DNA from: Amphiscolops sp. MND2022
Lineage: Eukaryota
Assembly (NCBI GenBank): GCA_964187785.1
Contig: OZ076409.1
Location: forward strand, 62,312,001 to 62,376,000
Length of the DNA stretch: 64,000 bases
Reading direction: 5' to 3'
The notes under the pieces: generated by a model
What the model was told of the DNA's origin: nothing
Database searches by the model: none
Seen by the model: only the letters and a program-made list of their open reading frames with translations
Part shown: piece after piece, positions 33,985-61,097 of the stretch
Layout of the letters: each line of letters opens with the position of its first letter
Numbering within the stretch: the stretch's first letter is position 1
Translations under genes and position numbers: made by a program

Positions 33985-34363
33985 GGTGCAACTTCAATTC
34001 GTCGAACATTCAAATCGTCGAAAAATGCAAAGCTATTCAATGCGTCGAAAAAATTCCATATCAGCGATTATTTTCATTTGGTTATATTTTGTGGCGAATA
34101 GCATATCTGTTGTATGGCTCGGTCGCTTCGCTCCCTTCGCCAAGTAGCAACATTGAGGCATGGCCATATGGCACTTCGCTCCGCTTCGCTTCGCTCCTGC
34201 ATTTAGGGCACTAGAGGTATGTGAACATATCTGACTACGTTATCGTAATTTTGAATGCTCGAATACGATTGGTCGAAACCAATTCATTCCATTACGTCAT
34301 ACCATGCTCGCTAAATTAATACGTGTTCGACGAATTGAATGTTCGACGAATTGAACAGTCCCC
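33985..34363. mobile_element. Mutator-type MITE carrying the GCGAAGC-rich core module
   Basis: Perfect 9-bp TSD ATATATCAT (33976-33984, 34364-34372); GG-starting TIRs with TTCAATTCGTCGAACA subrepeats; core at 34109-34243 on the minus strand. Confidence 0.85.
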
Positions 34364-35699
34364 ATATATCATAAAAGTTAATCTACATATTAGGCTGTTA
34401 TTTGGTTTTTCATGCGCGTTTACCTTTTAACAGGCTTGCGACAGTAGATGATTTGCTCAGTCAACGTTCTCCAAAGGTTACGTTAAGAACATTCGAGTAA
34501 TCACGTCATCGTACTAAAAATCCTTTCTCAATATTTGGGTAGCTCAATACGGAAGAAACAAAATACGGAAGAAACAAAAAATTTCAACAAAAACGCATCT
34601 TTCATTCTGTGAGATTTCTGAGTCAGTTCACAGCTGTTGTGTGGAATAATCCTTAGAAAAAATCGATACAAAACCCACCAGCAAGTGATGAAACACCAAG
34701 TGAAATTGAAAGAGCCCAAAAGAAAAAAGACTTCACATATTAAAAAACAGCGTATTTACCTTTGTTACAAAAACTATGATAGATTCAGTAAAAAGTAATG
34801 TACAAATAGAAAAAAGAAAAAAAATTGAGGTTGAAATTAGAAAAACAATAATCCAAATTGAAAATCCCTCCAACCTTTTTTAAACCGTAATCCGGTCTAA
34901 CATTTTTCTTTTCAAGCTGTTTGAGGGAAAAAGCTGGTCTTTTTTCATATAGTTGTATAAGAGTATGACTGTTTTCAATCTTTTTGTAACATGTTCTATG
35001 AAGAGATAGTTTCTTTAAAAAAACTGTTTCACATGAAAGTCTCTCACAGCACAGAGTATATACAAGTATATTTGTTCTTTCAAAAAAATCTGAGATGAGC
35101 GGTTAATGGTTCATTTTCATCAATGAGAGCACGGACGGAATTAATTTTTCATATCCTTAGATAACGTACGGATTTCATGTTGAGCAAAACTCGTACCGAT
35201 AAAATATTATACAATAATTTCAGATCTGAGGAAATATCAAATTTTGTGCCAAAGAAACATGCCTTAATTGCCCAATTAAGCATTTTCTATAACGTGGAAA
35301 TCAGATTCTCAGATTTTGTGCAATAAAACAGCCGAGTATTGTAGCCGACCAACTACCAATGCATTTAACTGCAACAATCGCGATCATTTCAGAAAATGGG
35401 GTTCATAGTAAGTACAAGCATTTGATACCACAACCCAAGTACTGCAAAATATTTTACTTCATTGTGAAATGTAAGATTCTGATCAAGGAATTATCCCAGA
35501 CATTGGACTGCATTCGAATGTTTTATTAGTTGAACTTTCACGCATAATCTGCAACTTTTGGCATCGTTATCTTTTGATGGTTCACGGAAAGCTGTAACTT
35601 CTTGAATTATAATACGTAAGTAACAAAACGAGTAAGTTGTAAATATAATAATATTTAAAGGCTGGTCATTCAAAATGTACATTTCAAGCCCAAAAAAGA

Positions 35700-36190
35700 C
35701 CTGCGATAAAAAAGCGCAGCATCATAGAAAGAAAGTAATCAATTGACGCATGGCTGATAGGTTCTTACAGGAAGCGCCATCTTTACAGAACGGAGCAGAG
35801 AATAGGAACATGAGGCTGAGATGAAGAAGTGGGACTCAATTTTACATCCATCAACGCCTAAATAACCAAGATATCGAGGGTTTAATTGAAATTTTCTCAT
35901 ATGTATTTGTGTGACGTTTTGCAGCAAGACAATGCTTCAGCTCAGAAACGGTGTTTAGGTTTTTGAAAACCGGCCACTGAAGTCGCCAGATCTCAATATT
36001 ACAGAAACTTGGTAGTCTATTTTAAAAGACAGAGTTGCGAAGCGACAGCACAAAACTATAAAGAACTAGGAAATTTTCCGCTCGATAAATTTCACTTCTT
36101 GAGAATTATATGCAATCACTTTTCAATTCAATAAAAAATCGGTTGATTCTTACTGAAATTAACTGGGGAGGTTTCACCCGATATTGAAAG
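35700..36190 (+). pseudogene. Highly decayed Tc1 transposase 3' remnant
   Basis: QQDNA.A, KSPDLNI.E.W and GGFTRY* recognisable across frameshifts. Confidence 0.5.
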
Positions 36191-37579
36191 CTTCAAAGTT
36201 GTACCTCATTCCAAAAATTATTTCAATGTTTTCATGCTGTTAATCAATTGAAGTTTTTTATTCAGTCCCCATTTCGTTTTGACAGCCCGACGTTAAATTT
36301 CTTCATCACAGTACTATACTCTTTGGACCTCCGTGGAGATAAAATTTCATTTACCTTGCAATGTGCTTTAAAGGTTGCACCTACTTTCGAGGTAGACTGA
36401 GATCTCAATTGGTCTATTGTTAACCAAGGTAATATTTGTCAAGGTAATAGCATCGAGCGGTTTTCCATGTTGTTCCATTAGCGGCATTGAGTCTACTTGG
36501 GTGTCAAAGTGTTCAATCTTTTTATCAAGAGCCGTTCGAAAGAATATTACTGATTTTACTCAAAATCTTGAAAAAATCCAAGTTTGATCAGCGAGTCATC
36601 GATACTAGTTCTATTTATATTAATTTTCGCTGGCTCACATAAAGCCGGGCCCTCTATATTTAGAGTGACGAAGCGAATCGCTTCCCTGGACATTGCAAAT
36701 GAAGACAGTTAGGGCGACACCATCACTTTCAACAGAAATAGAATCCACTTTGCTTCGCTGAGAGGTCCCATTTTCCATTCTCTGTCTCAGATGCTCTCTA
36801 GCAACGAGGAGCTTCAGTACTGTTAACTCCGCTATGACAGCAATAGTTGAGAAAAGGAAGCGTCCAAGGTGTTCTTATTTTTCGCCCACATAAATGGAGG
36901 AGGAAAATCATGATCTGTGTTGCGTTTTTTTCCAATTCTGCCAAGTTTTTATAATCTGATGCTTATAAAAGCTGGCAATTGGCTGTATCCGAACTTGATT
37001 TCAAATTGAAGGGTGTCACCCACAGAATTCAGCTCAAATAAAATTAACTTCCTGCCATATGTACTTGTCGAGATTTTTGGACTTTTTTGGGAATGACGAA
37101 AATGACCACGAAAATAACAAAAATTCCGAAATTTCCCAATTTTAACGTTTTTATGCAATTTTTGTCTATTTTTCGATGGACTTCGAGAGATCATTGCGGT
37201 TTTCTCCTTGAAAAATTTATCAAATTGACAACGAAAATGACAAAAAACACAAAAAATTTTCACTTTTCAATGTTTTCATGCAATTTTTCGACAGATTATT
37301 GTTTGTCCATTTTTGTTATTCAATGTTATTGCCGCTTCAGATCAAACAATTGATGTTTTTACTTTGAAATATGCTTATTAGTAACAGAATTCCATCCTTA
37401 GATTAGATGAAAATGAGAGCATCAAAATTAGGTGTTTCGTCTCAAAAAAATTTTGATGTTTTTAATTTGGCCAAAAGGGCTTGTTTTTGATGTTCTCAAT
37501 ATGGCCTGTTGTGTTATAAGGAGGGAATCTTCTTACTACTCCCAAAGGATCCCAATTGGACTTTTTTGGCACTGAGATT

Positions 37580-38056
37580 GGTTGGGCGACAATTCGTCCC
37601 AAGCGACAATTCGTCCCAAATTCCAAAAAGCGACAATTCGTCCCAAGCGGCAATTCTTCCCATTTTGAAAAGACGACAATTCGTCCCATTTGTAAAAAGC
37701 GACAATTTGTCCCAAAGTAATTAATTGATCAGCTAATTAACAACCTTTTGAAGATTGGTATCAAATATTTCAACAAATAACCTACAAGTGATTACATTTA
37801 AGCATTAAGTTACATTACATTTAAGACCTATTCATTGGTGTTAAGCCTCTAATTGCAATATTTCCGGATATATTATTACAAAAGTATTGATCGGCAATTA
37901 CATTGGGGACAAATTGCAGCTTTTAATAATTGAGACAAATTGTCGCTTTTTCAAAATGGGACGAATTGACGCTTGGGACGAATTGTCGCTTTTTGGAATT
38001 TGGGACGAATTGTCGCTTGGGACGAATCGTCGCTTGAGGCGAATTGTCGCTTTACG
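37580..38056. mobile_element. Second copy of the 17-bp-subrepeat foldback/Mutator-type MITE
   Basis: GCGACAATTCGTCCCAA repeats at left, inverted at right; internal sequence similar to 250-835; degenerate TSD sharing TGAGAT. Confidence 0.85.
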
Positions 38057-38059
38057 GGT

Positions 38060-38733
38060 GAGATGTGTTTACCAATGTGTTTCCCATCAGTTGCTGCAGA
38101 ATTATCAAACACAACTGAAGCACTCTTAGCCAGTCTTATTAGACTTGGACACGAGACTGCGATAGAAAACACAAAGCAGGATCCATTACAGAAAACTGTA
38201 TTAGGAGTTCTACTATCTGGGAAAAAGAAATCTCTGAATTATAACTATTTTAAGAAACCCATGATTGAGAAATCAGTCTATGATTGTATGGAAAAGTTTT
38301 CAGTTGTAGCTTTAGTCATCGTGTGCTTGCGATGAAACAATTTATATGAGCAATCAATTCATTCCTGCAAACTTTGCCAAAAAATTCCGTGCAATTGTTA
38401 CAAGCTATTCCATGTTCCCGAGTTTCCACTTTCATATCCATACGCGTACTAGCATTTCATGTATACGAGTTATAGCGATACTTATTTCATGTTTGATCCT
38501 GAAATAGTTCATTCGACTTCAAAATGCTGAATCATTGGCTCCTTTAGTTTGATTGATTTTCTTGTTTAGCGGGAAAGCTTCGCTTTGCGCGTGAGAGGTT
38601 GTCATTTTCAAGATTGATTAGATTGACTGAAACAGATTTCAACTGTTAAAAATCTCAAATTTTGGTATACTTCATTTTCTGCCAACTAATCTGCAACTTG
38701 GGATCTCATGAATGACGGAACCACCCATGTCCG
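38060..38733 (+). mobile_element. 3' fragment of a hAT-like element
   Basis: 38196-38733 is an inverted copy of 48927-49460; TSISCIRVIAIL resembles the hAT C-terminal dimerisation motif (S..CERxFS). Confidence 0.55.
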
Positions 38734-39743: not shown

Positions 39744-42700
39744 CTAAAACTTGAAAATGTCTAAATTGCAATTATCAACACAAGACACAGAATTGAGAAT
39801 GGCGGGCAAATCAGAGGAGTCCTTCTGTTCAATACACATAAACAATTCACGACATTTCTCTTCACACTGTTTTATATCTTTGTCAACTTCTTTTGAGCTC
39901 TCTAAAAACTTCTCCCCGAGTTCCACCAAACGCTGTAAGTCATGTTTTGAACTCCGTTTTTCTTCATTTGCAATGGACTCCAATAAACTCTTCTGGATTT
40001 CAAGCTGCTCAGTGAGTTTAGCACAAAACCTCAAGTTGGATTCCGGATCGATCTGATACGACGGCACATTGATGTTTTCAAAGAAGAATCGGTGTCTTGT
40101 GGAATCAACCAGCAAGGCGAATTTGGTGAAAAGGGGCAAAAAATTGTTCAATTTCGCTGCAAGTTTGGCAGTCTGTTCACTTTGCACTGAAATTAAGTCC
40201 CATATAACTTGATTGTAAGCCTGTTTTTCTGAATCCATTTTCAATTGACAAATTTGATCTTCTAGTCGGTTGTTTTCTTCAGCTAAGGCAGTAAGTTGCG
40301 AAAACGCTGATGCTTTCCTCTTTTTATGTGCATCTTCTAACGTTTTGGACAGAAAAACGGATCTCAGGTAGCGATTGTACACAGAAATAGTTTCAGGTGT
40401 ATTCTTAAAGGCTTGACTTTTTGAGCAGGAAAATGACGCAGAACTTTTGATTGGGGCAGCATTAATGCCAACTACTGCAGCATGAATGTTTCTGGTATCT
40501 TTAATTGACTCTGCAGATGATGTTGAACTGCAAGTCGCATTTCTCCTCAAGTCTGAGCTTTCTAAATCAACGCTGTCCGTTGTGATGTCACTGGTTACTG
40601 ACTGCTCGAACGTATCGTGTCCAGCATCAGGTTTAAACTGGCAAGTGTTTTCTTGGTTCTCAATTGAATCTGCCAACTCCAGGGCTTCAAAAAGTGACAT
40701 TTTTTCGACTCTGTTTTGTACCATTCTTCCATGTGATGGTGTTTCCTGATTTGCACAGGATCGAACACTGTTGAGAGGAGTTTCTGCATGTCTTTCACCT
40801 AAACATTTGTAAGATGGTGAAAAATTTACCCGTCGAAAATTGTCCAAAAGCCTAATTTTAACAGGTGCTGTTTTCTTTTCCGCTATATCATTAGTAATCG
40901 GCGCTATATGAACTATAGATCGCTATTTTAAAGGTTTTCGTCAGTTTTTTGAATCATTTTTTTTCATCCGCAAGTTCAAAATTAATACACTATGGTAGCA
41001 AAAAGCGACGTACAGCTGAAAATCAAATCTTATTCAGTTTGTGAAGAACTTTTTTCATTCTCAACCGGAAGTGAAATCAATCACTCTTGAATTAAACATT
41101 GTTGAAAATGGTCAAACCTTTGGATTCATACGTTGTTTGCAAAATCGTTACACTCCGCGAAATGGGTTTATCATACAAAGAAATTAAAGAAAAGTTGGGT
41201 CTTAAATCTCGATCGACAGCTCAAACAGCTTATCAGCGTTTTTTAAGAACGAACTCTTATGTGGCGAAAAAACCTCCAGGCCGGCCAGAAAAGCTCAGCG
41301 AAAAAGAGCAAAGACTAATAGTTCGAAGAGTGGAAAAAGACCCAAAAACAACATTAGAACGAGTAAGAGTACTGCAAAACTCTTTTTCAACGTCAAAGAC
41401 AGTTTCTAAATGCACTATTCGAAGAATCCTGAAGAAGTACGGAATTGTTTCTAGAAAAGCCGCAAAAAAGTTTAACTTGAACAAAAAACAAAGGCTGGTC
41501 AGAAAACGCTGGTGCTCGAGAATGTTGAAAAAGCCCCTTGGTTTTTATCCAGCGTCAATTTTCACCGAAAAGGGGAAAAAGTTATGGAATTTTTTGAAAG
41601 AAAAAATATTTGAGAAAAATCTCAAAGTGCCGAAAAAACCAAAACGAAATAAAAAATTTTATCAAATCAATCACTTTGGTAGAGTGAACTAATAGCGCTT
41701 TTGATGGTGCTGTCAATGATACAAGACGAGAACATCTAAAGTCGGCGCTAAACCTAAGGCTCAAAAAGCGCAAAGTGTAGAAACTCTGCTCAGAACTTTT
41801 ATGAAAAGACAAAAAACCTCAAAACACAAAAATATCATAAAGTTTGAAAGGGGACCCTTTAGTCTCGTTCGGTTTCGTATGTTACGTTAAAAAAGAGAAA
41901 ATGAGAGGGGGACCTTCTGCACTACCTTAGATGCATATTCGCTGGCCAGATTTGGGTGTTATTGTAAGCTTGAAGAAGGTTGTTTTTGTTTCATTCGAAC
42001 TTTTGCATTTTTGTTCTGAAATTCGGCTGGATGGAAACTAGGCTTCTGGGAAAACGTCGTATTCTCAGACGAAACCCGTGTGCGCTTGAATAGTGATGGC
42101 GTTGTGCGGGTGTTCAGGAAAACTGGTCGTCGCTTTTGCCCGAAAAACACACAGGGAATACGCACAGACAAAAGATCTATGATGTTTTGGGGGGCCATCA
42201 GATCAGATGGTAGGAAAATGCTAATTAAATGTCCCGCAACACTCAACAGTTACGGATATTTGGAGATTTTAAAGCAATACGATCGACATTTGAATATACC
42301 GGATTTGGTGTTCCAGCAAGACAACGCCCCAGTACACAAAAGTGAAGTTGTTCGCAATTTTCTGGCCCAAGAGCAATGGGAGGTGCTGGATTGGCCAGCT
42401 TACAGTCCTGACCTGAATCCTATTGAAAATATTTGGGCCATTTTTAAAAAAGCTTGCGATGTCAGATTGTTACCTGGGAGAATTTAGAAGAAAAGGTTAT
42501 GGAAGTGTGGAACAACATAAACCCTGATGTTGTTCGCAACTTGTACTCATCGTATGAGAATCGTCTGGTGAAGGTAATCAAAAACCATGGTAGTTTGACG
42601 GGATATTGATTTATTATTTGTTTCAACAGTTGTTTCAAATTTTACTGTTCTGAGTTTTTTTTAAAAAAATGTTGGTGTACGTAGCTTTTCGATACCATAG

Positions 42701-45348: not shown

Positions 45349-46975
45349 CAGTGCCTCACGAAAGTGTAACAATAGATAGGCATATTTCTAATAAAGGGTA
45401 TTTTAGTTCATAGACAAATGTTATGTTAGAAACAACCATATAATAAAACAACCATACTCTTCTCATGTTGTTTTCAATCACCGGAAGTTGTTTTTCTTCA
45501 CGCTTTTTTCTGGTTGCACGTTGAATCATAAAACATTTATTGTTACAATTTCGTGTGCGCCATTACAAAAAGCAAAAACCACTTCCTACATTATTTCAAC
45601 TGTTAAATTTCCGTTTACAATTTTCATTCTTTGTCACTCACAGTCTCTAATTACTTGTTTCTGTTATGAAAGTTATACCCATCTCAACCAAAACGCAGAT
45701 TTTCGAGTATGTAGCGGAGGGTTTATCTACAAGGCAAATTGCCAAGAAGGTGCCATCTGTTAGTCATATGACGGTGACCCGATTGAGGAGCGAGCATTTC
45801 AATGGCCTTGCAAAACCAAAAGCAGGTCGTCCATCAAAATTAACTCCATATGACAAAAGAAAACTCGTCCGAGACATGTCGTCAGGAAGGATACAAACAG
45901 CTGTTGATGCGGCTAAAGAGCTCTCAAATACAATGGAAACACAATTGCACCCTGAAGCTATCCGGCGAGTATTGAGGAAAAGTGGTTTGAAAGCAATCAA
46001 GAAAAAGAAGAAACCTTTCTTGAGTAGAAAACACAGACAACAAAGATTGGAATTCGCACGGAAGTATTCCAACTGGACACCAGAAGATTTCAAGCGTGTC
46101 ATATGGTCTGATGAAACCAAAATAAACAGATTTGGTTCCGATGGGCTCCAGTGGGTGTGGAAAAAGCCTAAAGCACCATTATTGGACTGCCACGTGCAGG
46201 GTACGTTTAAACACGGAGGTGGAAGCCTGATGCTATGGGGATGTATGACTTCTTTGGGAATTGGTCAGGCGTGTAAAATAGAGGGAAACATGGACAGCCA
46301 GCTTTATTGCGAGATTTTATCAGATAATCTCATGGGTACAATACGACACTATGGATGGGGACGAGATGACGTCGTTTTTCAACAGGATAACGACCCTAAA
46401 CACACCTCAAAATTGGCGAAAGACTGGTTTGAGGAAAATGGAATAACAGTTATGGACTGGCCTCCTCAATCACCGGATTTAAATCCAATTGAACACCTTT
46501 GGCACACGCTGAAGTACCAATTGCGAATGTATTCTAAACCTCCTGAGAGCGTTGCTGAGCTGTGGGAACGGGTGCAAGACGAGTGGAACAAAATACCAGT
46601 TGAGACAGTTCAAAACCTTATCGATAGTATGCCCAAGCGCATAAACGCTGTTTTGAAGGCTCGGGGTGGTTATACTAAATACTGAAACACTGTTCCTGTT
46701 CTTATATTCTGTTTTTTTAAGTGTATAAAAACGTTTATTCAAATTCATTTTCTAAAACATAACCACACACGAAATTGTAACAATACAATTTTTCAGTAGA
46801 GTGCTTGTGAATACATGTAAAAAACTCGAAAATATAAACCAAAACAATATACATTAATGCAACGTGTTTAACAAACATATTGAAAGCTTACTTAGTTTAA
46901 ATGCTGTACCCTTCTGAGAGAAAAAGAAGATCTCACTTTTTTAAAAGTCTATTGTTACAATTTCGTTAGGCACTG
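45349..46975 (+). mobile_element. Full-length Tc1 DNA transposon
   Basis: 28-bp TIRs CAGTGCCTCACGAAAGTGTAACAATAGA (2 mismatches); TA TSD on both sides. Confidence 0.97.
45666..46685 (+). CDS. Intact Tc1 transposase, DD34E, 339 aa
   Basis: HTH with GRPSKL linker; WSDETKINRFG, FQQDNDPKH, SPDLNPIE with 34 residues between D and E; GGYTKY end. Confidence 0.96.
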   Translation: MKVIPISTKTQIFEYVAEGLSTRQIAKKVPSVSHMTVTRLRSEHFNGLAKPKAGRPSKLTPYDKRKLVRDMSSGRIQTAVDAAKELSNTMETQLHPEAIRRVLRKSGLKAIKKKKKPFLSRKHRQQRLEFARKYSNWTPEDFKRVIWSDETKINRFGSDGLQWVWKKPKAPLLDCHVQGTFKHGGGSLMLWGCMTSLGIGQACKIEGNMDSQLYCEILSDNLMGTIRHYGWGRDDVVFQQDNDPKHTSKLAKDWFEENGITVMDWPPQSPDLNPIEHLWHTLKYQLRMYSKPPESVAELWERVQDEWNKIPVETVQNLIDSMPKRINAVLKARGGYTKY

Positions 46976-48876: not shown

Positions 48877-48926
48877 TTAGTTAGTACCAGTTTTTAGTAG
48901 AAAGAACACTGTTCGAGTCCCTCAAC

Positions 48927-50767
48927 CGGACATGGGTGGTTCCGTCTTCATGAGATCCCAAGTTGCAGATTAGTTGGCAGAAAATGAACTATACCAAAAT
49001 TTGAGATTTTTAACAGTTGAAATCTGCTTCAGTCAATCTAATCAATCTTGAAAATGACAACCTCTCACGCGCAAAGCGAAGCTTTCCCGCTAAACAAGAA
49101 AATCAATCAAACTAAAGGAGCCAATGATTCAGCATTTTGAAATCGAATGAACTATTTCAGGATTAAACATGAAATAAGTATCGCTATAACTCGTATACAT
49201 AAAATGCTAGTACGCGTATGGATATGGAAGTGAATACTCGGGAACATGGAATAGCTTGTAACAATTGCAGGGAATTTTTTGGCAAAGTTTGCAGGAATGA
49301 ATTGATTGCACATATAAATTGTTTCATCGCAAGCACACAATGACTAAAGCTACAACTGAAAACTTTTCAATACAATCATAGACTGACTTCTTAATCATAG
49401 GCTTCTTAAAATATTTTTAATTCAGTGACTACTTCCAGATAATAGAACTCCTAATATAGTGTAAGTTCTAGAGACTTCCAACCACTTCAGCACCAATAAA
49501 AAACACTGCTCGTAACCATTTGGATTTTTAAATTTCATTTACTTCGATCACATTGCCTGAACATTATCAAGCACATTTGAAGAACGAGAATCACGGTATC
49601 CTTATCCCAAATCTGCCGTATCTGATCACGCTCCTGTCCTGTTAGCTTCAAAAAGTACTTTACGTTATTGTAACCTTTATCTCTTGATTATTTGATACAA
49701 CCCAGGGACCAATTCCATGAGTTGACATAAGTGGCCTTTGTTTTTCCGCACGCAATCTTCGTGTATTTTGAATCAGGAAACATCCTTCTATACAAACGTA
49801 CATCCCTTCTAAAATCATCGCTTGATCGAAATGAATTCCCATCACGCACCAACTTCAAACAATGGTAACTAAGTGCGTTTAACATCAAATCCTGCGAATC
49901 ATTCTGAGCAACCAGTGCGCTCTTGACATCTTGAGTATTCTTCCGCGCAGCTACTGCTCTCAGATGTTCAGCGGAATCCTGGTGTTTCCTCAAACATTTA
50001 CTTCTTTGTTTCAATGATATTTTGCGGTTACAGATTGAACATATACACCGGTGCTCATCGTCGGGGTCACCTCTGGACCACGAAAATTCATTTCACATTG
50101 AAGCATTGTATTTGGAAAATATTTCTATCTACAATACTTTTGGTGTTTAGCAACATAAGAATTCACATGAGATTGAAAGTATGGACAACTATACTGCATA
50201 TGGCAGGAAAAAATCGACTTAAGAAGCACTGAATAAGAAAAACCTGCGTCAAAGCCAATTTAAACACTAAAAGTACACCTTTGTTCAAAAGTACACCAAA
50301 GTACACTAGTCGCCCCGAAGTACACTACTCTGTTGTGCTTAATAAGAGGGGGGTCATATTTAGAGGGGGGGTCTAGCAAATTTCTGGCGGACAGTAAGAG
50401 GGGGGGTCTAAATTACAGGGGGGGTCTAAACAGCTCCTGAATTCTAGAAAACATTTTTAAAGCAGAAAAATTAAACTGAAACGCATCTTTTACAAATGTT
50501 TATACAAAACAAAAGTTATTTTCCGGCCGGTTTTCTGAATTTTCGTCTTTGTTGATTGATTTCCGAGATCAGTTTGTTGAAAAATGGCCGTAGCTTGTGG
50601 GTATTTGCTCTTTCTGCCAGGGTTCGAACCTGGGCGTGAGCTTTTTTTTCTTTCGTGTTTGCTACCAGGGGGGGTCATAATAAGAGGGGGGGTCCCTGAT
50701 TTTCAGGCAGAGACAGTAGTAGGTACCCCCCCTCTTATTAAGCACAACAGAGTAAGTGGCCACCCTG
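48927..50767 (-). mobile_element. Internally deleted hAT-like element
   Basis: End CAGGGTGGCCAC at 50767 with AAGTACAC subterminal repeats; transposase remnant MFPDSKYTKIACGKTKATY (49688-50014); no TSD found. Confidence 0.65.
50328..50752. mobile_element. Tc1/mariner (pogo/Tc2-type) MITE inserted in the hAT end
   Basis: Perfect TIR CTCTGTTGTGCTTAATAAGAGGGGGG; TA TSD; internal AGAGGGGGGGTC repeats. Confidence 0.88.
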
Positions 50768-51175: not shown

Positions 51176-52105
51176 TCGGATATCTTTTAGTTCGGATATA
51201 ACGTTTCAGTGTTCGGATATAACGTTTTCAAAATTCGGATATAACGTTTTCAAAGTTCGGATGTAACGTTTCCAGAGTTCGGACATAACGTTTTCAAAGT
51301 TCGAATGCAACGTTTTCAAAGTTCGGATATAACGTTTTCAAAGTTCGGATGTAACGTTTCCAAAGTTCGGATATAACGTTTCCAAAGTTCGGATATAACG
51401 TTTTCAAAGTTCGGATGTAACGTTTCCAAAGTTCGGACATAACGTTTTCAAAGTTCGAATGCAACGTTTTCAAAGTTCGGATATAACGTTTTCAAAGTTC
51501 GGATGTAACGTTTCCAAAGTTCGGACATAACGTTTTCAAAGTTCGAATGCAACGTTTTCAAAGTTCGGATATAACGTTTTCAAAGTTCGGATGTAACGTT
51601 TTCAAAGTTCGGATATAACGTTTTCAAAGTTCGGATGTAACGTTTCCAAAGTTCGGATATAACGTTTTACACAGAGGCGAAGCGGTGCTTCGCAACACAT
51701 GACGAAGACATTATTTTAATATGCGTATATATATTATTTTAATCGCATGCGTATATATTCAACAGTTCAACTTTGTTCAATAACGTCCCTATGGCACAGT
51801 GGTCAACACTTATGCCGTGCAATCGGGAGGCTGCAGGTTTGAATCTCTCAGGGGTTTTGGCTTTTGTCTAAAAGGCGCTCATTATGAAGTTGACTATTGT
51901 GGGAAAAAAAAACTTTCTTAGCTGGACTGCAATGCACATTGACTTCATGTGCAAAAAGTTCGAATGCAACGTTTTCAAAGTTCGGATGTATTGTTTCCAA
52001 AGTTCGGATATAACGTTTTCAAAGTTCGAATGTAACGTTTTCAAAGTTCAGATGTAACGTTTTTAAAGCTCGAAGGTAACGTTTTCAAAGTTCGGTTATG
52101 ACGTG
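51176..52105 (+). repeat. 22-bp minisatellite (AAAGTTCGGATATAACGTTTTC), ~22 units at 51176-51668 and ~7 units at 51955-52105
   Basis: Direct tandem units with no unique spacers. Confidence 0.92.
51785..51855 (+). other. Degenerate tRNA-like sequence (A and B boxes)
   Basis: GTCCCTATGGCACAGTGG...GGTTTGAATC; stems imperfect. Confidence 0.55.
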
Positions 52106-53367
52106 TTCATTTCTCATATAGCATTATCGACCCCCCCCCCCCTCCCCCCCCCCCAAAAAAAAATCACAATCTGTTGAGCCTTAGATATAGCACCGACTTG
52201 GGCCGTTCCCAGCTTTTAAAAAACGAAGTTGATCTACAAATCTAAATTGAATAATGCATTTCATGAACATGACTCCTTCCATCCATTCACTGCAAGCTTT
52301 CATAGCACCAAGTGAGAAAATTTGTAACCAATTTAATGCAGTTCAACTAAAATATTCATTATATCTACAACATCCTTGTATGCGTGTATCATGTATTAAG
52401 TAGGACACAATGTAATGTTACCATAGGTGATAAAATAGGAAACTTTGTGAGAATATTGCTTTGCAAACAAATCTGCACACACGAAACATCAAAATATTGC
52501 GAACGCGCGTATCGTTCCTCTTTAGGAATTGATCAAAAAACCAAGATTCCAACTTGGCAAAACCTGAAAAATCGAGGTAGTCGAAAGCATTTACAATCGA
52601 ATCATTGTGACAAATGCTTCCGCAAAAATTCAATTTCGGAACGATTGTGGGAACTATTGGATGGACCTGACATCCAATGTAATTATTATTGATTCAATTT
52701 AAAAGCAGTGATTGATTGGATTAATTGCAAAATTTGGCGTTAATTAATTGGCTTCATTCAAAAAGCAGCATCTGTTAATTTAGTGACGTATTTCATTCTA
52801 GCATTTGAAATTTACAAATAAAATTTAATCAAACAAAATTTGCAGTTTTCAAGACTTCCGTCATTGAGTACCAATTGAATTTAAATTGATAAATTTCGGT
52901 ATAAGTTGTGGATTTTGACGATTTTCTTATTACTAAGAAGTCTTGAAAGTGGTTAAAAGCACACAATAATTTAAATATAAGACGCAGAGAAATGAGCCCA
53001 CGTAACTTGATGACTTGAAATAGATAGACAAAAGCGAATAGATTTTAGAATAGAGTTTATTGGGTTGTTCGCCACTATCGACAAATTTAAAACCCAGCCT
53101 TGATTGCACCAGAGATTCAGAATATTGCACCTGCAATTAATTTGATAAAACTCTAGAGAGTCTACTTCTTGGCATTGAAAACGCGTCTTCGGAAAATAAA
53201 TTCCAGCTGAACATCTTCACCTTCCTCACAGTATCGAAAGTGTGTTGCATCCATCGGTAACTGGGATAGTTCGGCCAGTATAAAGTTAATGTGCGCTAAC
53301 TTTTTGTTCCTTTTTTCAAGCAAGCTAGATAACTGATACCATGCTGAATGGTTGCTGGCTACAAAAA

Positions 53368-55755
53368 CTAAGCGGCATGCTCAACAGAACTTTCATCGGG
53401 ACTTTTGCTCAATGCTTCTTCGTTTGAGGCCCGTAAAGAAGTTCCTTCTTCTGCTCCTTCTTTCCCAGACATCGGAGACTCTTCGAGGTCGATCAAACCA
53501 AGTTGTTCGAAGTTTGCACCTTTTGATTTATCTGGATAGCCACCTGTAGTTTCTTGCACAGGACTGAGAATATTCATAGCAGGAAGAGGCGATTCTTTGG
53601 CACAGAAATCAGCAGTACTGTTGGCTAATAAATTGGCACTTGAAAAGTCTAGGCCCTCGAAAATATTTACAGCGTTACTGCCATCATCGCTACTTGGGTT
53701 TATACTCAATTGGCTGAAGCCAGGCAACAAATCATCGCCCGCCAGACTGATTCCACTGTCTTCCAAACCAGAAAATCCAGTTCCATCCGGAGCACCAGAA
53801 GAAAGCGGGTCGAGATCTTCCAAAAGAGAGGAAGAAGAATTAGCAGAATCAGCTTCCACTTTTGTATCATCTGGATTCGGAACTGAAGTTAAACTGGCTG
53901 ATTTCACACCTTCTTCAGTGGGTGTCAAAACTGCAAGAGCACTTTCCATAACAGGTTCAGGAGACACGCTGTGTTCTCTAGAATATTCTTTTGAAGCAGC
54001 TTTTTCAGCTGTTTCGCTTTCGTTTCGTTGATCTGAATCGTCAGTTCTCTGATCAAAATCGTTCATTAGGTCAAAACTTGAATCATTTTGGGCTTCTGTT
54101 GTTTGAGCAGCTGAGTCTTCTGGAGCTTTTGGAATTTCTGGAACCGCATCTGTGGCTGATTCCGATTCTGAAGCTTTTGCAGATTCCGGTTCTTGAGCTT
54201 TGGCAGATTGTGATTCTGGATCTTTGTTTGGGTCTTCTGGCTCTATGGGAGGCTCTTTGGCTGGCTCAGATTTGTTGGGTGCAGGTGAAGACGATTTCGC
54301 TACACTTGCACTTCTGGTTCGCTTCATGATAGCCTCAAGTCGAGCTCTTCGTTCAGCACGTTCCTCTTCTTCCGCTTTTCGACGCTCATCTTGAAGTCTT
54401 TCGAACTCTTCTTGCTCCTTCAAACGAACTTTCTCAGCTTCAATTCTCTGCTTCTCTCTTTCATCTTCTAGCTTTTGTTTCTCCGTTTCCTGTTCGATCA
54501 TCATTTGCTCTTCCTTTTCAAACAATTTCAAATTCTGATCTTCCAAAACCTTACCATTGTCTTCAATTTCAGCATTAGGAGTATCTTTCATTTCATTCGT
54601 TTCAAGAGTATCACTTTTCTTTAATTCTTCTTCATCTTTGACATCATCTGGCTCAAGACATGCACTTTTGCTACCCACTTTACTGGAATCGGGTAGTGTG
54701 TTAATTCTACCAACCTCGGTGTTTGCGATAGAGAGAAGGTCATTTATAGATCTATCCAATTGGTCTGTTTCCGGTTTTATCTGCGCTGCCATCAAACTTG
54801 GGGCCGGGCTCCTAACAGGTGACGAAACATCAGATGACGCAGTTGTTGGAGCTTTCACTTTAGCTGGCAGTTGGACCGTCTTGTTTGCGTTCATTTTATC
54901 TCTCATTGCACGTCTATGTTCGGCCATTTTCTGTTTGTAAAATTCTATCTCTGCGTCTTTTTCCTTACTGCCGGAGCTTTTATCTTGAGATGACAAGTCT
55001 TGTTTATTGTTTGTTTTTCCTTTAGGTGGAGGTTCGGATGCTGTTGCAACAACAGCTTCTTTCTTGGCCTGCAGATCTCGAGCAGCAACCGAGTGGGCCT
55101 TTTTAGGACGACCCAATGTTTTTGACTTCTGGGCCTCATTCACAGCTGCCGTTGTCGAACTTATATTGTTGTGAACTCTTGACCCAGAAGCTGATCTAAT
55201 TTTTCGTTTAGGTGACATCGTTATTGGCGACTTCGGTGCAACTGTTTTACTCGTATTGACTAATCGTTTAGGAGCAGGAACAGTTTTCGGCATTGTGCAT
55301 ATCTTGTTTTTGTATTTGTTAACAGGAAGTTCTAACTGATGAAATATTGCCTGCGAAAGTGATGTCTTTCTCTTCGATACTTTACCTTTAGCTTTGGACT
55401 TCAGTTCTGCAGCTTTGATACATTTAAGCTCGACCCTTCTCAAAATCTCAACTTTCCTCGCGTGGTTCTCCAACAAAATTTGTTCCCTTCGTTTCAATAC
55501 AGCAGCAATTCGAGAAGTATTTGTTTGGTTTTTTGTTTCCAAGTCTTTTTTGCGCTCAGCCAGTAACTTTTCGTGTTTTAGAGCATTTTCAATGATACGC
55601 TGTCGAGCCATCGTGAGCCGGCTTTCTTCAAGTTGCGATTTTCGAGAAAGGACAGCTTTGAGCCGATCCTCGTAAGACGCCATTGGGGATGCCATGCGCT
55701 TCGATTTTTCATTGTATTTGCTAGCGCCTTTTGTTTGCGCCAGCTCTTTGCCCAT
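53368..55755 (-). CDS. MAP7: MAP7/ensconsin-family microtubule-associated protein, 795 aa, single coding exon
   Basis: N-terminal basic coiled coil, Pro/Ser-rich linker, second coiled coil ending ERAERRARLEAIMKRTR (MAP7-domain signature ER.ERKKRLEEIMKRTR), acidic tail; paralogue not resolvable. Confidence 0.8.
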   Translation of the reverse strand: MGKELAQTKGASKYNEKSKRMASPMASYEDRLKAVLSRKSQLEESRLTMARQRIIENALKHEKLLAERKKDLETKNQTNTSRIAAVLKRREQILLENHARKVEILRRVELKCIKAAELKSKAKGKVSKRKTSLSQAIFHQLELPVNKYKNKICTMPKTVPAPKRLVNTSKTVAPKSPITMSPKRKIRSASGSRVHNNISSTTAAVNEAQKSKTLGRPKKAHSVAARDLQAKKEAVVATASEPPPKGKTNNKQDLSSQDKSSGSKEKDAEIEFYKQKMAEHRRAMRDKMNANKTVQLPAKVKAPTTASSDVSSPVRSPAPSLMAAQIKPETDQLDRSINDLLSIANTEVGRINTLPDSSKVGSKSACLEPDDVKDEEELKKSDTLETNEMKDTPNAEIEDNGKVLEDQNLKLFEKEEQMMIEQETEKQKLEDEREKQRIEAEKVRLKEQEEFERLQDERRKAEEEERAERRARLEAIMKRTRSASVAKSSSPAPNKSEPAKEPPIEPEDPNKDPESQSAKAQEPESAKASESESATDAVPEIPKAPEDSAAQTTEAQNDSSFDLMNDFDQRTDDSDQRNESETAEKAASKEYSREHSVSPEPVMESALAVLTPTEEGVKSASLTSVPNPDDTKVEADSANSSSSLLEDLDPLSSGAPDGTGFSGLEDSGISLAGDDLLPGFSQLSINPSSDDGSNAVNIFEGLDFSSANLLANSTADFCAKESPLPAMNILSPVQETTGGYPDKSKGANFEQLGLIDLEESPMSGKEGAEEGTSLRASNEEALSKSPDESSVEHAA

Positions 55756-56064
55756 TGTGCATCTGAAAAAAAATTAAGAACGTCACTTTATTTAATTTCA
55801 CCTGAAACATGCCTCAAAAAGTCATCCAGCCCCTCATTTTGCAGTTGAAACTGTAAAAAATGTAGTTGTAAAATGTCCAAAACCTCTTCAAAACCAGCAT
55901 TAACAGAAAGAGTGTGGTTTAAACAGTATGAAATCGAAACACAATTAGTTTGTACCTTAAAAAATGTTTATTGGAATCATGTTTATTATTCCCCCAGGTA
56001 CATCTTATTTCTCTCCAATCGACAAAACTTTCATATTTGAAAAAAATTCTTGCAGGAATAGAAA

Positions 56065-56584
56065 ACAAGCCGGGAACGGCCCAAGTCGGCGCCATATCTA
56101 AGGCTCAAAAATAGCAAAAGGACTTCAAAGTGTCAAGTACTCTCCTCTACAGTATCCAAAAAAAATTCCGAAAATTTTTTGAATTTTTTTGAAGTTTCTG
56201 GTAAGTCGCATTGTACCGAAAAATGTAAAAGGGGCGCTTTGGCTGTTTTTCAACATCCATTCTTTTGCAAAATAGGAAAAAAATGAAGGGTGGACCCTTC
56301 GGAGACATTAAAAAAATTGCGAAAAAAAGTCTCACAAAGCCGAAAAAAATCTACAAAAAAAATTTGGTCAAGGGCGGGACTCGAACCCATGTCCTTCCGC
56401 TTGGCAGACCTCAAAAAGCCGTAACCTCTATGCCAGTGTGGTTTAGTGTTAGTGCCAGACAATGTTAGTGCCAGACAGCAGTGTTAGTGCTTACTTATAA
56501 AATTTATAAAATCTGTCAGTTCGTTGGTCCTAAAAAAAGTCACTACTATAGTCTGCGTTTTTCTTCGAAAAGCGCCGATTAAAA
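56065..56584 (-). mobile_element. HINE-like element with a tRNA-like cassette (56366-56441)
   Basis: Both characteristic ends present; TGGCATAGAGG A box and GGTTCGAGTCC B box on the minus strand. Confidence 0.72.
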
Positions 56585-56945
56585 AATCGACGTGACTACA
56601 AATATTCAGATGCATTGAAACTTCCAGCAAAAGTAACTCTGATTTTTGATATTCTTTTCCAAAAGAGCAAAATTGAAAAAGCAAAAACTGAAATAAGTCA
56701 AAATTGAATATCAAAGCCCATATTTCAACGCAAAATTTCTCCGCTATAAATTTTAAAGAGCATTTTTTAACTATTCAATCAATGAAACGGGATATTACGT
56801 TTACATCAATTTCATTGGACCGAAATTTCATCTCGAACGATGTCGAGATAATTGTCTTTTTATTCCGAAAACTGTAACTGAACATTGAATAATTTCTAAT
56901 GCTATTGTCAAGTATGATGAATGAAAATGTAATGTTTCAATGCAG

Positions 56946-57342
56946 AACAAGCCGGGAACGGCCCAAGTCGGCGCCATATCTAAGGCTCAAAAATAGCAGA
57001 AGGACTTCAAAATGTCAAAGTATTGGTGAATTGGGGACCCTTTTAAGAAAAAACAACAAAAGCTCTCAAAAGGCTAAAAATTGAGAAAATTTTTTTTTGA
57101 AAATTTTTTTCGAAGTTTCCGGTAAGTCGCATAGTGCCGAAAAATGTAAAAGGGGGACGCTTTTTATCTCATGTTTGACGCTTTGGATGCGTTGAAAATG
57201 AAGTACTAAGTACATATGGTAAAATTGGTAAATGTGCATTAATTGGATTAATGCACAAAAAGTGGACGTACGCTTTGAACTGACGAAAAAAAAACTAGCC
57301 ACTGTAAGAGTCGGGATTTTCTTCGAAAACGCCGACTAAAAA
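56946..57342 (-). mobile_element. HINE-like element
   Basis: 5' TTTTAGTCGGCG..CCCGACT; 3' CGCCGACTTGG-GCCG-TTCC-CGGC-TTGTT. Confidence 0.75.
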
Positions 57343-57485
57343 TGAGGTGTTATTATTCTTTCATAAGCTACAAAAACCAACTTGAACATTTAAAAACTGA
57401 ATCGAAAAGCATCAATTATGAGCAACCAAATTTAAGTCGGTCAAACAATTTGCACAATAATATACTCAACATCTAAAAATCTAAA

Positions 57486-58601
57486 TCACTTCTGCTCTGC
57501 GTCTTTCCTCTTTTCTTCCTCTTCTTTTTTCTGCTGCTCAATCAATTCCCTGACTTGAGGGTCATCAGGATTGACACCGGGCAGGGAATCCAAAATAGCC
57601 CGCAAGTTCTCAGCGTCAACCTCTTCTTGGGCTTCACCTTGACCAGCTGACACATCCATGGGCTCAGCGGAACTTCCACCGCCCTCAGTTGTATTTTCTT
57701 GAGACTGCATCGACATTCGAAGGGCCAACTCTATTTGTTCATCCTCAGTCATTTGACTGAGGTCTTTTTGGATCGGAACACCTCCCATTGACAAGCTAAG
57801 TGCTTCTTGGAGAAGAGCGTCTTCAGTTGAACCACCGGCAGTCGCAGCGCCTTGATCCCCAGTCGTCACAGTCACTGGTTCAGCAGTGTTCGACCTTTCC
57901 TCTTCTTGCTGGGCTTTTCTTTGCTCTTCCATAGAGACTCTCAAGGCAAGAGCCAACTCTGGATCATCAGCGGGATCGAAACCTGAGGGATCAAAAGCCC
58001 CAGCTGTTGGAATTGTACCATCTTCTGATATTATTGGAGATTGTAACATGGCATCAGAGAGCTTTGATCCACTGGGCACATTGACGAAATGAGAGCCTGG
58101 TTCATCTTTTCCTTGGTTGAGGGTGCTTATAAAAGTTTGCAGTTTTTCACAATTCTCCTCTTCGCCAAAATTAACAACATTGACGTTCACATTGTTTTTC
58201 TTCAACTTCTTGGCGAGAGTAACAATATCCTTCTCTGATTCTTCAAGCGGACTGCCAACAAAAACAACAATTCTTTGTCGATGGTTTTTTCCTTGACGAT
58301 TTCGCAGGACAATCTGAGCAATTTTGATGCCAATGAGGAATCTGTATGCCCCCAACGGTTGTATTTGGGTCATAAAACTAATAATGCGATTGACATCTGT
58401 CGTAAAAGTGCTATGAACTTTGGGATGATCATCCGTAGCCATGGACATCAGGGCTATATTATTTTCGGGATTCGAACGCGTCTTGGCGTTACAAACAAGT
58501 TGCACCGCTTCTTGCTGGGCTTGCAACCTGGAAGGGGCGAAATCTCCATTCCTCATGAATTCGCTGCTGTCGACGCATATGATAGTGGATTCGAGAACCA
58601 T
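57486..58601 (-). CDS. PSMD4: 26S proteasome ubiquitin receptor Rpn10/S5a, 371 aa, intronless CDS
   Basis: MVLESTIICVDSSEFMRNGDFAPSRLQAQ vWA domain; UIMs DPELALALRVSMEE, EDALLQEALSLSM, EDEQIELALRMSMQ; C-terminal LDSLPGVNP; true ATG at 58601. Confidence 0.97.
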   Translation of the reverse strand: MVLESTIICVDSSEFMRNGDFAPSRLQAQQEAVQLVCNAKTRSNPENNIALMSMATDDHPKVHSTFTTDVNRIISFMTQIQPLGAYRFLIGIKIAQIVLRNRQGKNHRQRIVVFVGSPLEESEKDIVTLAKKLKKNNVNVNVVNFGEEENCEKLQTFISTLNQGKDEPGSHFVNVPSGSKLSDAMLQSPIISEDGTIPTAGAFDPSGFDPADDPELALALRVSMEEQRKAQQEEERSNTAEPVTVTTGDQGAATAGGSTEDALLQEALSLSMGGVPIQKDLSQMTEDEQIELALRMSMQSQENTTEGGGSSAEPMDVSAGQGEAQEEVDAENLRAILDSLPGVNPDDPQVRELIEQQKKEEEEKRKDAEQK

Positions 58602-59530
58602 TGCCAACAATTTGAAATCTTAAATCATTTCACGATTTAAAAATCTTAGGTCCTCACCATTTTGTTGCATATAACATTTAAACCACGGTTAAACTGATCT
58701 CTCAAGGGGAGAGTGCAGAAACCATGAGTTGCTTTAAATGAACACGAGTCAAATTGCAAAAACGAATCCATACTGAAAAATCAAGGTTAGATGACAACTT
58801 ATGGATTCGAGAACCAAACTTAAGAAGGTGTTGCACAGACTGAAAGATGTGAACAGTTTGAACGACAATGCCATTTGCTGTTCGAACAATGCCGGCCTGT
58901 TCCAAGACGAGGAAAAGCTTCTTACATTAAACGAGACAACTGAAGAAATTTTTTCTCTTTCTTCTTCATTTTTTTATTCTCCGCTTTCATCTTTAGCTTC
59001 TCATTTTCCCTCTATCAGATATCATGGATCTTCGTCATCAATCAAGTGCCATGTGTCTCATCATGTTGGGGGAAGAAGACACACACCAGTGGTCTGCAAC
59101 GAAAGTAGGGAACCCCATACCAGCCACTATACCAGTAACAAAAAGAAACAACCAACAAACGACTCAAACCAGCCACTCTGCAGTCGACCGGTGAAATTTT
59201 TTTAATAGCTGCTTTGATATAAAGGTAAAAAAATTAGGCTATATGTAATAAAATTCTTCGAACGCATCTCTGTCGCTCACAGTTCCTAGAACACAGGCCG
59301 CATAGCCGATCTGAAGGGCCATTGAAATCCGTTGCTTCAAAAAGCTGCCAGCTCGTTGATCGTCGTGCGAACGACAGAGCATTTTACAGAGACGCGTGAT
59401 GAAAATTACACTGCTCTCGCCTGAAGAACCCTGTACTTCCGAGGCCACTGGCTGAAAAATGTATTTGTCCATTAATTCGCTATACTTCTCAGTTTTACGC
59501 GCGTCAGCCTCGGTGGCGATGGTTCCCGGG

Positions 59531-60245
59531 GGGGGGGGGGGTGTTCGGAAATAGGTCGAAGGAACGGGATCGAAAACCAGAGTTAGTCCTCAGGTCGACA
59601 TACCAAATTTTTGGGTGGGCGGATATAGGTCGAAGGAACGGGATCGAAAATCAGAGTTAGTCCTCAGGTCGACATACTAAATTTTTGAATGGGATCGAAA
59701 CAACTCGGATCGAAATTTTTATAACGTAGTCAGATATGTTCACATACCCCTAGTGCCCTGAATGCAGGAGCGAAGCGAAGCGGAGCGACGTGCCATATGG
59801 CCATGCCTCAATGTTGCTACTTGGCGAAGGGGGCAAAGCGGCCGAGCCATACAATAAAAACGATAAAATTCGACCGCATTCCATTCGATCCCTGCAATTC
59901 GATCAAAAGGTTCGACCTCTGTCCTTTCGACCAAAAAAATTCGACCTATCTACAGCCACCCCAAATTTTTGAATGGGATCGAAACAACTCGGATCGAAAT
60001 TTTTATAACGTAGTCAGATATGTTCACATACCTCTAGTGCCCTGAATGCAGGAGCGAAGCGAAGCGGAGCGACGTGCCATATGGCCATGCCTCAATGTTG
60101 CTACTTGGCGAAGGGAGCGAAGCGACCGAGCCATACAACAAAAACGATAAAATTCGACCGCATTTCATTCGATTCCTGCAATTCGATCAAAAGGTTCGAC
60201 CTCTGTCCTTTCGACCAGAAAAATTCGACCTATTTACAGCCACCC
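59531..60245. mobile_element. Mutator-type MITE with two tandem copies of the GCGAAGC core
   Basis: TSD GTTCCCGGG / ATTCCCGGG (8 of 9); GGGTG...AAATAGGTCGAA termini; empty site visible in the LINE copy at ~62698. Confidence 0.8.
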
Positions 60246-60286
60246 ATTCCCGGGTTGCATAAAGAGCCTTGATTCAGGCGACTGGG

Positions 60287-60653
60287 GGGCAGGGACGTTT
60301 TGTCACCAGCCATTTGGGCGACAAAAATTTCAGCCCATTTCGGCGACAATAATGTTGCCCAAATGTCCCGTTGACTAAATGGCCAAATATGTTCACATAC
60401 CCCTAGTGCCCTAAATGCAGGAGCGAAGCGAAGCGAAGCGAAGCGAAGCGGAGCGACGTGCCATATGGCCCTGCCTCAATGTTGCTACTTGGCGAAGGGA
60501 GCGAAGCGACCGAGCCATACACCAATAATGCTAACCTTCAAATATATCAGTTAATTGATCAATTTGGTCAACCCATTTGGTCGACACTTTTGTCGCCCAT
60601 GTGACCGACGCCATATTGTCGCCCAATTGGCTGGTGACGAAATGTCCCTGACC
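60287..60653. mobile_element. Mutator-type MITE with one GCGAAGC core
   Basis: ~38-bp TIR GG.CAGGGAC.TTT.GTCACCAGCCA.TTGGGCGACAA; TSD GCGACTGGG / CCGACTGGG (8 of 9); empty site at ~62730. Confidence 0.85.

Positions 60654-61049: not shown

Positions 61050-61052
<3 letters not shown>

Positions 61053-61095: not shown

Positions 61096-61097
<2 letters not shown>

What the first reader, a model, noticed from the sequence alone, without database searches (positions are those of the whole stretch)
33985..60653. One ~125-bp GCGAAGC-rich core shared by three MITE families with unrelated TIRs
The module ATATGTTCACATACC.CTAGTGCCCT.AATGCAGGAGCGAAGCGAAGCGGAGCGA.GTGCCATATGGCC.TGCCTCAATGTTGCTACTTGGCGAAGGGAGCGAAGCGACCGAGCCATACA occurs almost unchanged four times: 34109-34243 (minus), ~59732-59852, ~60016-60136 and ~60387-60521. 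It always sits inside a 9-bp-TSD element, yet the three hosts have different TIRs. Established: d(GCGAAGC) forms an exceptionally stable mini-hairpin. Inference: this is a hitch-hiking cassette or functional cis-module (replication or amplification enhancer, protein site, small RNA) swapped between non-autonomous transposons. It is the best candidate for an undescribed system in the window.
Basis: partly seen in the sequence, partly recalled or inferred. Interest (0 to 1): 0.72.

Follow-up and report, generated by a model that had tools for sequence, protein, structure and literature searches.

The report
Shared hairpin centre of Mutator mini-transposons
Three families of tiny gene-less jumping elements in an animal genome have very different ends but an almost identical 120-letter centre, likely kept alike by copying between families, and that centre holds two odd hairpins predicted to fold only in single-stranded DNA, one of which also recurs in plasmids and viruses; whether the elements use them is untested.

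Summary
Observation confirmed: a 120-bp core lies centrally in four 349-379 bp elements of three families (A, B twice, C), plus one decayed partial copy at ~10.15 kb. The two B copies are one family inserted into itself. The hosts look like type-2 foldback Mutator-like MITEs (8-9 bp duplications, GG tips, subterminal repeats). Their TIRs are divergent rather than unrelated: the first repeat word sits in the same register. Cores differ by 2-3 of 120 bases across families but 4 within family B, and their flanks fade from about 55% identity to background. That fits an ancestral centre homogenised by recent exchange, as described for maize Mu. The core has no duplication or sub-terminal repeats of its own. 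Its two hairpins are GAA triloops zipped by predicted sheared G.A pairs; the second recurs, with pairing flanks, in plasmids, a Streptomyces telomere and giant-virus-like repeats. Function is not shown: related family D lacks the core, and the youngest B copy has the hairpin broken. No genome or reads were available, so this rests on five copies. The scan noted this hairpin class, and end-swapping cores in bacterial MITEs, on other DNA before, but not this sequence.

The parts
33985..34363 (-). Element A, 379 bp foldback MITE; imperfect 8-bp tips, then about 30-bp TIR with 16-bp subterminal repeats; 9-bp duplication at 33976-33984 and 34364-34372
34111..34230 (-). Core copy in A (hairpin 2 at 34115-34142; hairpin 1 at about 34175-34197, closing pair broken)
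59539..60245 (+). Element B-outer (59539-59612 plus 59971-60245, 349 bp without the insert); duplication 8 of 9, G-run at the left junction
59613..59961 (+). Element B-inner, 349 bp, inserted into B-outer; perfect 9-bp duplication at 59604-59612 and 59962-59970
59734..59853 (+). Core copy in B-inner; three private transitions break the three inner G.A pairs of hairpin 2
60018..60137 (+). Core copy in B-outer; hairpin 1 at 60051-60073, hairpin 2 at 60106-60133
60287..60654 (+). Element C, about 368 bp; about 38-bp TIR, perfect 8-bp (or 8 of 9) duplication; arms related to family D
60387..60521 (+). Core copy in C, hairpin 1 lengthened by three GAAGC units; hairpin 2 at 60490-60517
10141..10290 (+). 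Decayed partial core (about 70-75% identical, 5' half significant), host ends not recognisable
62676..62760 (+). Empty-site paralogue carrying single copies of the targets of B-outer and C
37580..38056 (.). Family D foldback element (second copy at 1-835), TIR related to C, without the core; serves as control

Best explanation
Four short elements with inverted ends and 8-9 bp target duplications carry the same 120-bp centre; they are likely non-autonomous Mutator/foldback transposons of three diverged families that inherited the centre from a common ancestor and likely keep it near-identical by copying it from one another. Shown: the elements inserted by a mechanism that duplicates the target (empty site, self-nesting); the centre is 97-98% identical across families while the arms barely align; its flanks fade gradually; it has no ends of its own. 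Inferred: transposases act in trans on the TIRs; after excision the gap is repaired from an ectopic copy, the core is the only long homology between families, so conversion tracts start and end in it and can also swap arms. Predicted: when an element is single-stranded its arms pair and present the core at the apex, where the purine-rich strand folds two GAA-triloop hairpins zipped by sheared G.A pairs. These would resist nucleases and single-strand binding protein and so favour template switching. On this reading the core is a dispensable, self-spreading centre, not a part needed for transposition.
For: Across families the cores differ at 2 (A/B-outer), 3 (A/C) and 3 (B-outer/C) of 120 sites, within family B at 4; sites 16 and 27 show all four allele pairs. 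The first 15 bases outside the core match at 7-13 of 15 in all 6 cross-family comparisons (p below 0.0001 to 0.064), and positions 31-45 at 1-7 of 15. The 5' extension is shared by A, B and the decayed copy but only weakly by C. The first subterminal word starts 16 bases from the tip in both ends of A and B, and within 2 bases of that in C; C and D ends align in 4 of 4 pairs (p 0.001-0.010), A and C in 2 of 4 (p about 0.01). Whole elements fold as foldbacks (z -2.2, -6.0, -4.8). Hairpins with two or more GA loops: 7 calls in the window, all in core copies, against 0.017 per shuffled window (60 shuffles). Precedent: exchange of TIRs and interiors between diverged Mu clades (PMC10401008); TIR anatomy of Muta1 and Tm1 (PMC5499845, PMC3169594).
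Against: Only five copies from one window; no genome. B and C ends show no significant alignment (0 of 4 pairs, p 0.33-0.56) and the p-values are uncorrected over 24 cross-family pairs. The four-allele pattern rests on two transitions and could be repeat mutation. No Mutator transposase was seen among the window ORFs scanned (17 window ORFs scanned in all). Nearest-neighbour folding rates the core worse than shuffles as DNA (z +1.6 to +2.5), so the hairpins rest on pattern and literature, not on computed energy. Neutral exchange does not explain why a sequence so precisely built for single-strand folding sits there.
Confidence: 0.5

Rival explanations
1. The core is a selected single-strand cis-element (priming site, protein landing site or protective cap) that raises copy number of any MITE that acquires it, so families swap ends around it.
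For: Hairpin 2 recurs in mobile DNA with single-strand phases: 23-48 bases from the end of a Streptomyces linear plasmid, on the strand that ends there; upstream of repA; in plasmid pRm1132f. 18 of 23 distinct viral matches have the unrequested 5' GA partner (background 6.8%). Flanks of 35 clustered contexts pair better with their own partner (-7.35 against -5.54 shuffled, p 0.0002; reversed control -5.85, p 0.005). Mini-hairpins occur at priming sites and bind SSB poorly (PMC13037366). All 4 intact cores are central.
Against: Family D lacks it. B-inner, the latest insertion by nesting, has all three inner G.A pairs of hairpin 2 broken; A has the closing pair of hairpin 1 broken; the core is not better conserved than the arms in family B. 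Muta1 moves by double-strand cut and paste (PMC5499845). A cruder stem count on the viral hits gave no signal (p 0.50).
Confidence: 0.2
2. The core is the relic of a single-strand-moving element (end of a Helentron/HINE, Helitron or Crypton) captured once by an ancestral MITE and now inert.
For: Earlier scan notes place such GA-zipped hairpins at the ends of HINE-like and Crypton-like elements of animals (unchecked notes). A CTAG lies 13 bases behind hairpin 1 on the pyrimidine strand in 4 of 4 copies. A 5-bp direct repeat lies near both ends. Capture of foreign hairpins is known for Tm1-HH (PMC3169594).
Against: No sub-terminal inverted repeat (none at 8 bp perfect, 11 with one mismatch or 14 with two), which HINEs require (PMC4067079). 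The CTAG is followed by A or G, and shared sequence runs 15-39 bases past it. The 5-bp repeat is at chance level (p 0.21). Capture alone does not explain near-identity across families, so exchange is needed anyway.
Confidence: 0.2
3. The core is itself a mobile mini-element that inserted independently at the centre of each MITE family.
For: Sharp near-identity block; the decayed copy has no visible TIR host.
Against: No flanking direct repeat longer than 4-6 bp over a wide range of boundary choices; edges differ between families; flanks are homologous and diverged. 4 of 4 intact copies sit at the centre of a MITE.
Confidence: 0.06
4. The core is a small RNA gene or RNA element.
For: Part of it can fold as RNA.
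Against: RNA folding z -0.45 and +1.0 for the two strands; only one sub-threshold Rfam hit, outside the core; no tRNA; the RNA form of a related mini-hairpin is much less stable than the DNA form (PMC13037366).
Confidence: 0.04

Closest known systems
Type-2 foldback MULEs: Muta1 of Aedes aegypti (PMC5499845, passages read) and Tm1 of root-knot nematodes (PMC3169594, abstract and passages read)
   Same: 8-9 bp target duplication, short partly asymmetric G-rich tip, TIR built of subterminal repeats, MITE-sized non-autonomous forms; Tm1-HH carries a conserved foreign hairpin inside.
   Different: Tm1 classes share TIRs and differ inside; here the inside is shared and the TIRs differ. The Tm1 hairpin is the histone mRNA stem-loop; this one has a single-strand DNA design. 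No transposase is linked here.
Maize Mu homomorph/heteromorph cycling (PMC10401008; first of six parts and passages read)
   Same: Recombination or conversion between diverged clades uncouples TIRs from interiors; nesting is one proposed route.
   Different: There the exchanged interiors are mudra/mudrb remnants and the TIR clades align; here the shared part is a 120-bp non-coding module and the arms align only at motif level. No heteromorph was seen in this window.
DNA mini-hairpins at single-strand origins and Streptomyces telomere palindromes (PMC13037366, PMC5449611; passages read)
   Same: GNA triloop closed by a sheared G.A pair; hairpin 2 matches a Streptomyces linear plasmid end at 24 of 26 bases.
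   Different: Only the 22-26 nt hairpins match; the 5' 96 bases of the core had no hit in the fetched metagenome and genome loci. Likely convergence of structure, not descent. No primase or terminal protein is linked.
HINE / DINE-1 non-autonomous Helentrons (PMC4067079, passages read)
   Same: Short, non-coding, hairpin near one end.
   Different: No sub-terminal inverted repeats; the hosts make target duplications, which HINEs do not.

Membership tests
Foldback-type MULE MITE (hosts) | 8-9 bp target site duplication | tested here: met
   2 of 4 perfect 9-mers, 2 of 4 at 8 of 9 or perfect 8-mers; empty paralogue for two
Foldback-type MULE MITE (hosts) | TIR with terminal motif and subterminal repeats | tested here: met
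   Within-element end alignments p 0.001-0.002; repeat words every 13-27 bases
Foldback-type MULE MITE (hosts) | Short, non-coding, folds back on itself | tested here: met
   349-379 bp; no ORF of 120 aa that starts and ends inside an element; z -2.2 to -6.0
Foldback-type MULE MITE (hosts) | TIRs shared with an element encoding a Mutator DDE transposase | not testable with these tools
   No genome held; only Tc1-type and BED-finger hits among window ORFs. P and hAT elements (8-bp duplications, recalled) are not formally excluded.
HINE / Helentron (core) | 12-15 bp sub-terminal inverted repeats | tested here: not met
   None found in the core with 25 and 16 bases of flank, families A, B, C
HINE / Helentron (core) | 3' stem-loop 8-35 bases from the end | tested here: inconclusive
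   Hairpin 2 ends about 5 bases before the end of the shared block; true end unknown
HINE / Helentron (core) | Insertion into T-rich site with TT on both sides | tested here: inconclusive
   Boundaries are mosaic; no empty core site available
Canonical Helitron (core) | 5' TC and 3' hairpin plus CTRR, inserted between A and T (rule recalled) | tested here: not met
   CTAG is internal and followed by A or G; CTRR behind hairpin 2 in 1 of 4 copies, followed by C
Crypton (core) | 4-6 bp terminal direct repeats (not found in animal Cryptons per PMC3212892) | tested here: inconclusive
   5-bp repeat near both ends, p 0.21
Single-strand initiation signal / mini-hairpin origin (works like) | GNA triloop hairpin on one strand | tested here: met
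   Two per intact core, purine strand only; pattern level, not thermodynamic
Single-strand initiation signal / mini-hairpin origin (works like) | Directs priming or excludes single-strand binding protein | not testable with these tools
   Needs a bench assay
Known RNA family | Rfam match above gathering score | tested here: not met
   One hit at 19.9 bits (cut-off 35, E 0.66), outside the core, in 59500-60700

The most novel reading that the evidence does not exclude
Cut-and-paste MITEs of an animal carry a swappable single-strand DNA module, built like the hairpins of plasmid origins and Streptomyces telomeres, that sits at the apex of the folded-back element and recruits priming or protects a single-stranded intermediate. 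It would give them a replicative route to high copy number, and the module rather than the ends would be the unit that spreads.
Probability: 0.18. Interest if true: 0.8.

Novelty: new variant of a known kind. Interest (0 to 1): 0.45.

Why it matters
MITE interiors are usually treated as inert filler and families are defined by their ends. A centre that stays 98% identical while the ends diverge gives a small, countable marker for exchange between transposon families. It also offers a direct test of an open question, how MITEs outgrow their autonomous partners: delete or flip a 120-bp module and measure. If the module is only a passenger, the finding is a tidy animal example of a process already described for maize Mu.

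Tried and rejected
No whole genome is held and no sequencing run was listed (no evidence either way), so copy number, free copies, expression and read support were not tested. Exact scans for core-specific stretches found nothing: 26-mer in metagenomes; 24-mer, two-hairpin gap pattern, hairpin-1 22-mer and 5' 22-mer in viral contigs. Look-ups of earlier notes by sequence and relatives were blank, as were two word look-ups. Standard DNA and RNA folding does not support the core as a stable fold. A contiguous-stem count on viral hits showed no partner effect (p 0.50); the duplex-energy test did, and it was run second. BLAST hits to plasmids (33 records) and phages (41 records) have E 0.1-5 and are not significant singly; 28 of the 41 phage records are Vibrio phages. 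An 11-base match to the core start inside the D copy at about 725-735 was judged chance (not reported by nhmmer at E 20). Assembly artefact was rejected because of the duplications, allele pattern and empty site, but the three substitutions in B-inner could be sequencing errors. Literature: searches listed no paper on a shared GA-hairpin core in eukaryotic MITEs (listings only; one search was for telomeres). The library lacks most subscription papers and Repbase/Dfam were not searchable; no supplements were read.
Full report
Setting. The window is repeat-rich DNA of about 37% GC. A proteasome subunit gene (Rpn10-type) at 57.5-58.6 kb is about 50% identical to named fish, insect and brachiopod proteins and 70-80% to four unnamed metagenome or run-assembly proteins, so the host is a fast-evolving animal; I did not place it further. 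No genome and no runs were available, so all statements about the elements rest on this window.

Observation. The core is there four times. The strictly shared block is 120 bp: 34111-34230 (-), 59734-59853, 60018-60137 and 60387-60521, the last with three extra GAAGC units. A profile search finds one more, decayed copy at 10160-10227 (E 7e-6) and nothing else below E 2.8.

Hosts. A is 33985-34363 with a perfect 9-bp duplication. B-inner is 59613-59961 with a perfect 9-bp duplication taken from B-outer, into which it inserted; this explains the 74-bp and 284-bp tandem repeats. B-outer and C sit 41 bases apart in another repeat whose paralogue at 62676-62760 has single copies of both targets; their duplications match at 8 of 9 or as perfect 8-mers. 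All are 349-379 bp, start with GG, have arms made of repeated words, carry the core in the middle (arms 133/126, 121/108, 100/134) and fold back on themselves (z -2.2 to -6.0). This is the anatomy of type-2 foldback MULEs such as Muta1 and Tm1 (PMC5499845, PMC3169594; passages). The transposase link could not be tested.

Are the TIRs unrelated? Not quite. Over the first 40 bases A and C align in 2 of 4 end pairs at p about 0.01, A and B in 2 of 4 at p 0.02-0.04, B and C in 0 of 4; a fourth family D (37580-38056 and 1-835) aligns with C in 4 of 4 (p 0.001-0.010) (uncorrected). The first subterminal word starts 16 bases from the tip in both ends of A and B and within 2 bases of that in C. The arms are therefore old relatives at motif level. 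D has no core, so the core is not obligatory for this kind of element.

History of the core. Seven sites vary among the four cores. A and B-outer differ at 2, A and C at 3, B-outer and C at 3, but the two B copies at 4; sites 16 and 27 show all four allele pairs. Just outside the block, the first 15 bases still match at 7-13 of 15 across families and positions 31-45 at 1-7 of 15, against 26% expected. A, B and the decayed copy share a 5' extension of about 24 bases that C shares only weakly. No flanking direct repeat over 4-6 bases and no sub-terminal inverted repeat was found. The simplest reading (inference) is old common descent of the centre followed by recent conversion between families, for which the core is the only long homology. 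Maize Mu elements give a precedent for uncoupling TIRs from interiors by recombination or conversion (PMC10401008).

Structure of the core. Standard energies rate it worse than shuffles as DNA and ordinary as RNA. Read with sheared G.A pairs, the purine strand holds two hairpins: hairpin 1 (core 34-56) and hairpin 2 (core 90-115), parsed GGC GAA GG GA GC GAA GC GA CC GA GCC. A pattern scan gave 7 calls with two or more GA loops, all in core copies, against 0.017 per shuffled window; these are two distinct hairpins, not seven events. The stability of GCGAAGC-type mini-hairpins, their weaker RNA form, their presence at priming sites and poor SSB binding are taken from a review (PMC13037366, passages); GNA loops with sheared pairs at Streptomyces telomere overhangs from PMC5449611 (passages).

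The hairpin elsewhere. No collection held the core itself. Hairpin 2 alone is widespread. An 18-mer matched 26 viral loci; in 18 of 23 distinct contexts the unrequested GA partner lies directly 5' (background 6.8%; loci not independent). A 22-mer matched 46 metagenome and 9 genome loci. Most metagenome loci are a multi-copy intergenic repeat of about 170 bp in giant-virus-like contigs; others resemble integron attC sites (label recalled) or lie in haloarchaea. In plasmids 24 of the 25 listed hits (33 in all) cover only hairpin 2, and in phages 23 of 25 listed (41 in all) only hairpin 1, each with E 0.1-5. Of six records opened, one is the end of a Streptomyces linear plasmid, one lies upstream of repA, one is in pRm1132f, two are unannotated plasmid stretches and one is a Vibrio phage. 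In 35 clustered contexts (from 62) the flanks pair better with their own partner than with shuffled or reversed partners, although a cruder stem count showed nothing. So hairpin 2 belongs to a recurring structural class of mobile DNA; only 22-26 bases match, so this is likely convergence.

Against function. D lacks the core. Within B the core is no better conserved than the arms (4/120 against 10/229). All three private substitutions of B-inner hit the three inner G.A pairs of hairpin 2 (post hoc probability 0.001-0.008). This may mean that the hairpin is not needed to jump, that it mutates fast, or that these are sequencing errors. A has lost the closing pair of hairpin 1 and C has lengthened it.

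Comparison. The hosts meet the testable features of foldback MULE MITEs. The core fails the sub-terminal repeat test for HINEs (PMC4067079) and the end rule for Helitrons (recalled), and is inconclusive for Crypton (PMC3212892). It looks like a single-strand mini-hairpin signal, but that activity is untested. Earlier scan notes report the same hairpin class at the ends of HINE-like and Crypton-like elements, in giant viruses and haloarchaea, and end-swapping cores in bacterial MITEs; these are unchecked leads, and they raised the relic rival. Nine literature searches (listings) showed no report of such a core in eukaryotic MITEs; repeat databases were not searchable.

Verdict. Real, and more than chance. 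Best reading (0.5): an ancestral, dispensable hairpin centre homogenised between related Mutator-type MITE families. Rivals: selected single-strand cis-element (0.2), captured relic of a single-strand element (0.2), free cassette (0.06), RNA (0.04). New variant of a known kind; interest 0.45.

Noticed in passing
L033-L039, L041-L049, L051-L055, L057-L062, L065-L071, L073-L077; also L006, L026: Giant-virus-like contigs carry an intergenic repeat of about 170 bp, partly tandem, with hairpin 2 in it; more than ten exact matches on one 137-kb contig. Could be origin-like repeats.
   Followed up: partly
window 51189-52109: 22-bp satellite in two blocks around a perfect GCGAAGC/GCTTCGC palindrome (51677-51693) and a tRNA-like stretch at about 51786-51853 (by eye; ARAGORN found no tRNA). 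Possibly a SINE or HINE-like element.
   Followed up: no
window 1-835 and 37580-38056: Family D foldback elements with 17-bp repeats; the first has an expanded left array and an insertion of about 155 bp in its right arm (605-762).
   Followed up: partly
window 6000-8500, 10313-10560, 41600-41930, 51063, 56040-57340: Large modular repeat family present in both orientations; ends not determined.
   Followed up: no
window 59227-59530, 60246-61609, 61991-62760: The repeat that hosts B and C looks like a decayed non-LTR retrotransposon region; a reverse transcriptase fragment lies at 60998-61609. It received three MITE insertions within about 50 bp of target.
   Followed up: partly
window 12261-18220: Gypsy-type LTR retrotransposon with 239-bp direct repeats (97% identical) and frameshifted gag-pol on the minus strand (classed by eye).
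   Followed up: no
window 45651-46685 and 41096-42487: One intact-looking (344 aa) and one broken Tc1-type transposase; 488-bp inverted arms at 38225-38712 and 48947-49434.
   Followed up: no
window 53368-55773 and 57486-58619: An 801-aa open frame without Pfam match, and an apparently intron-free Rpn10 gene.
   Followed up: partly
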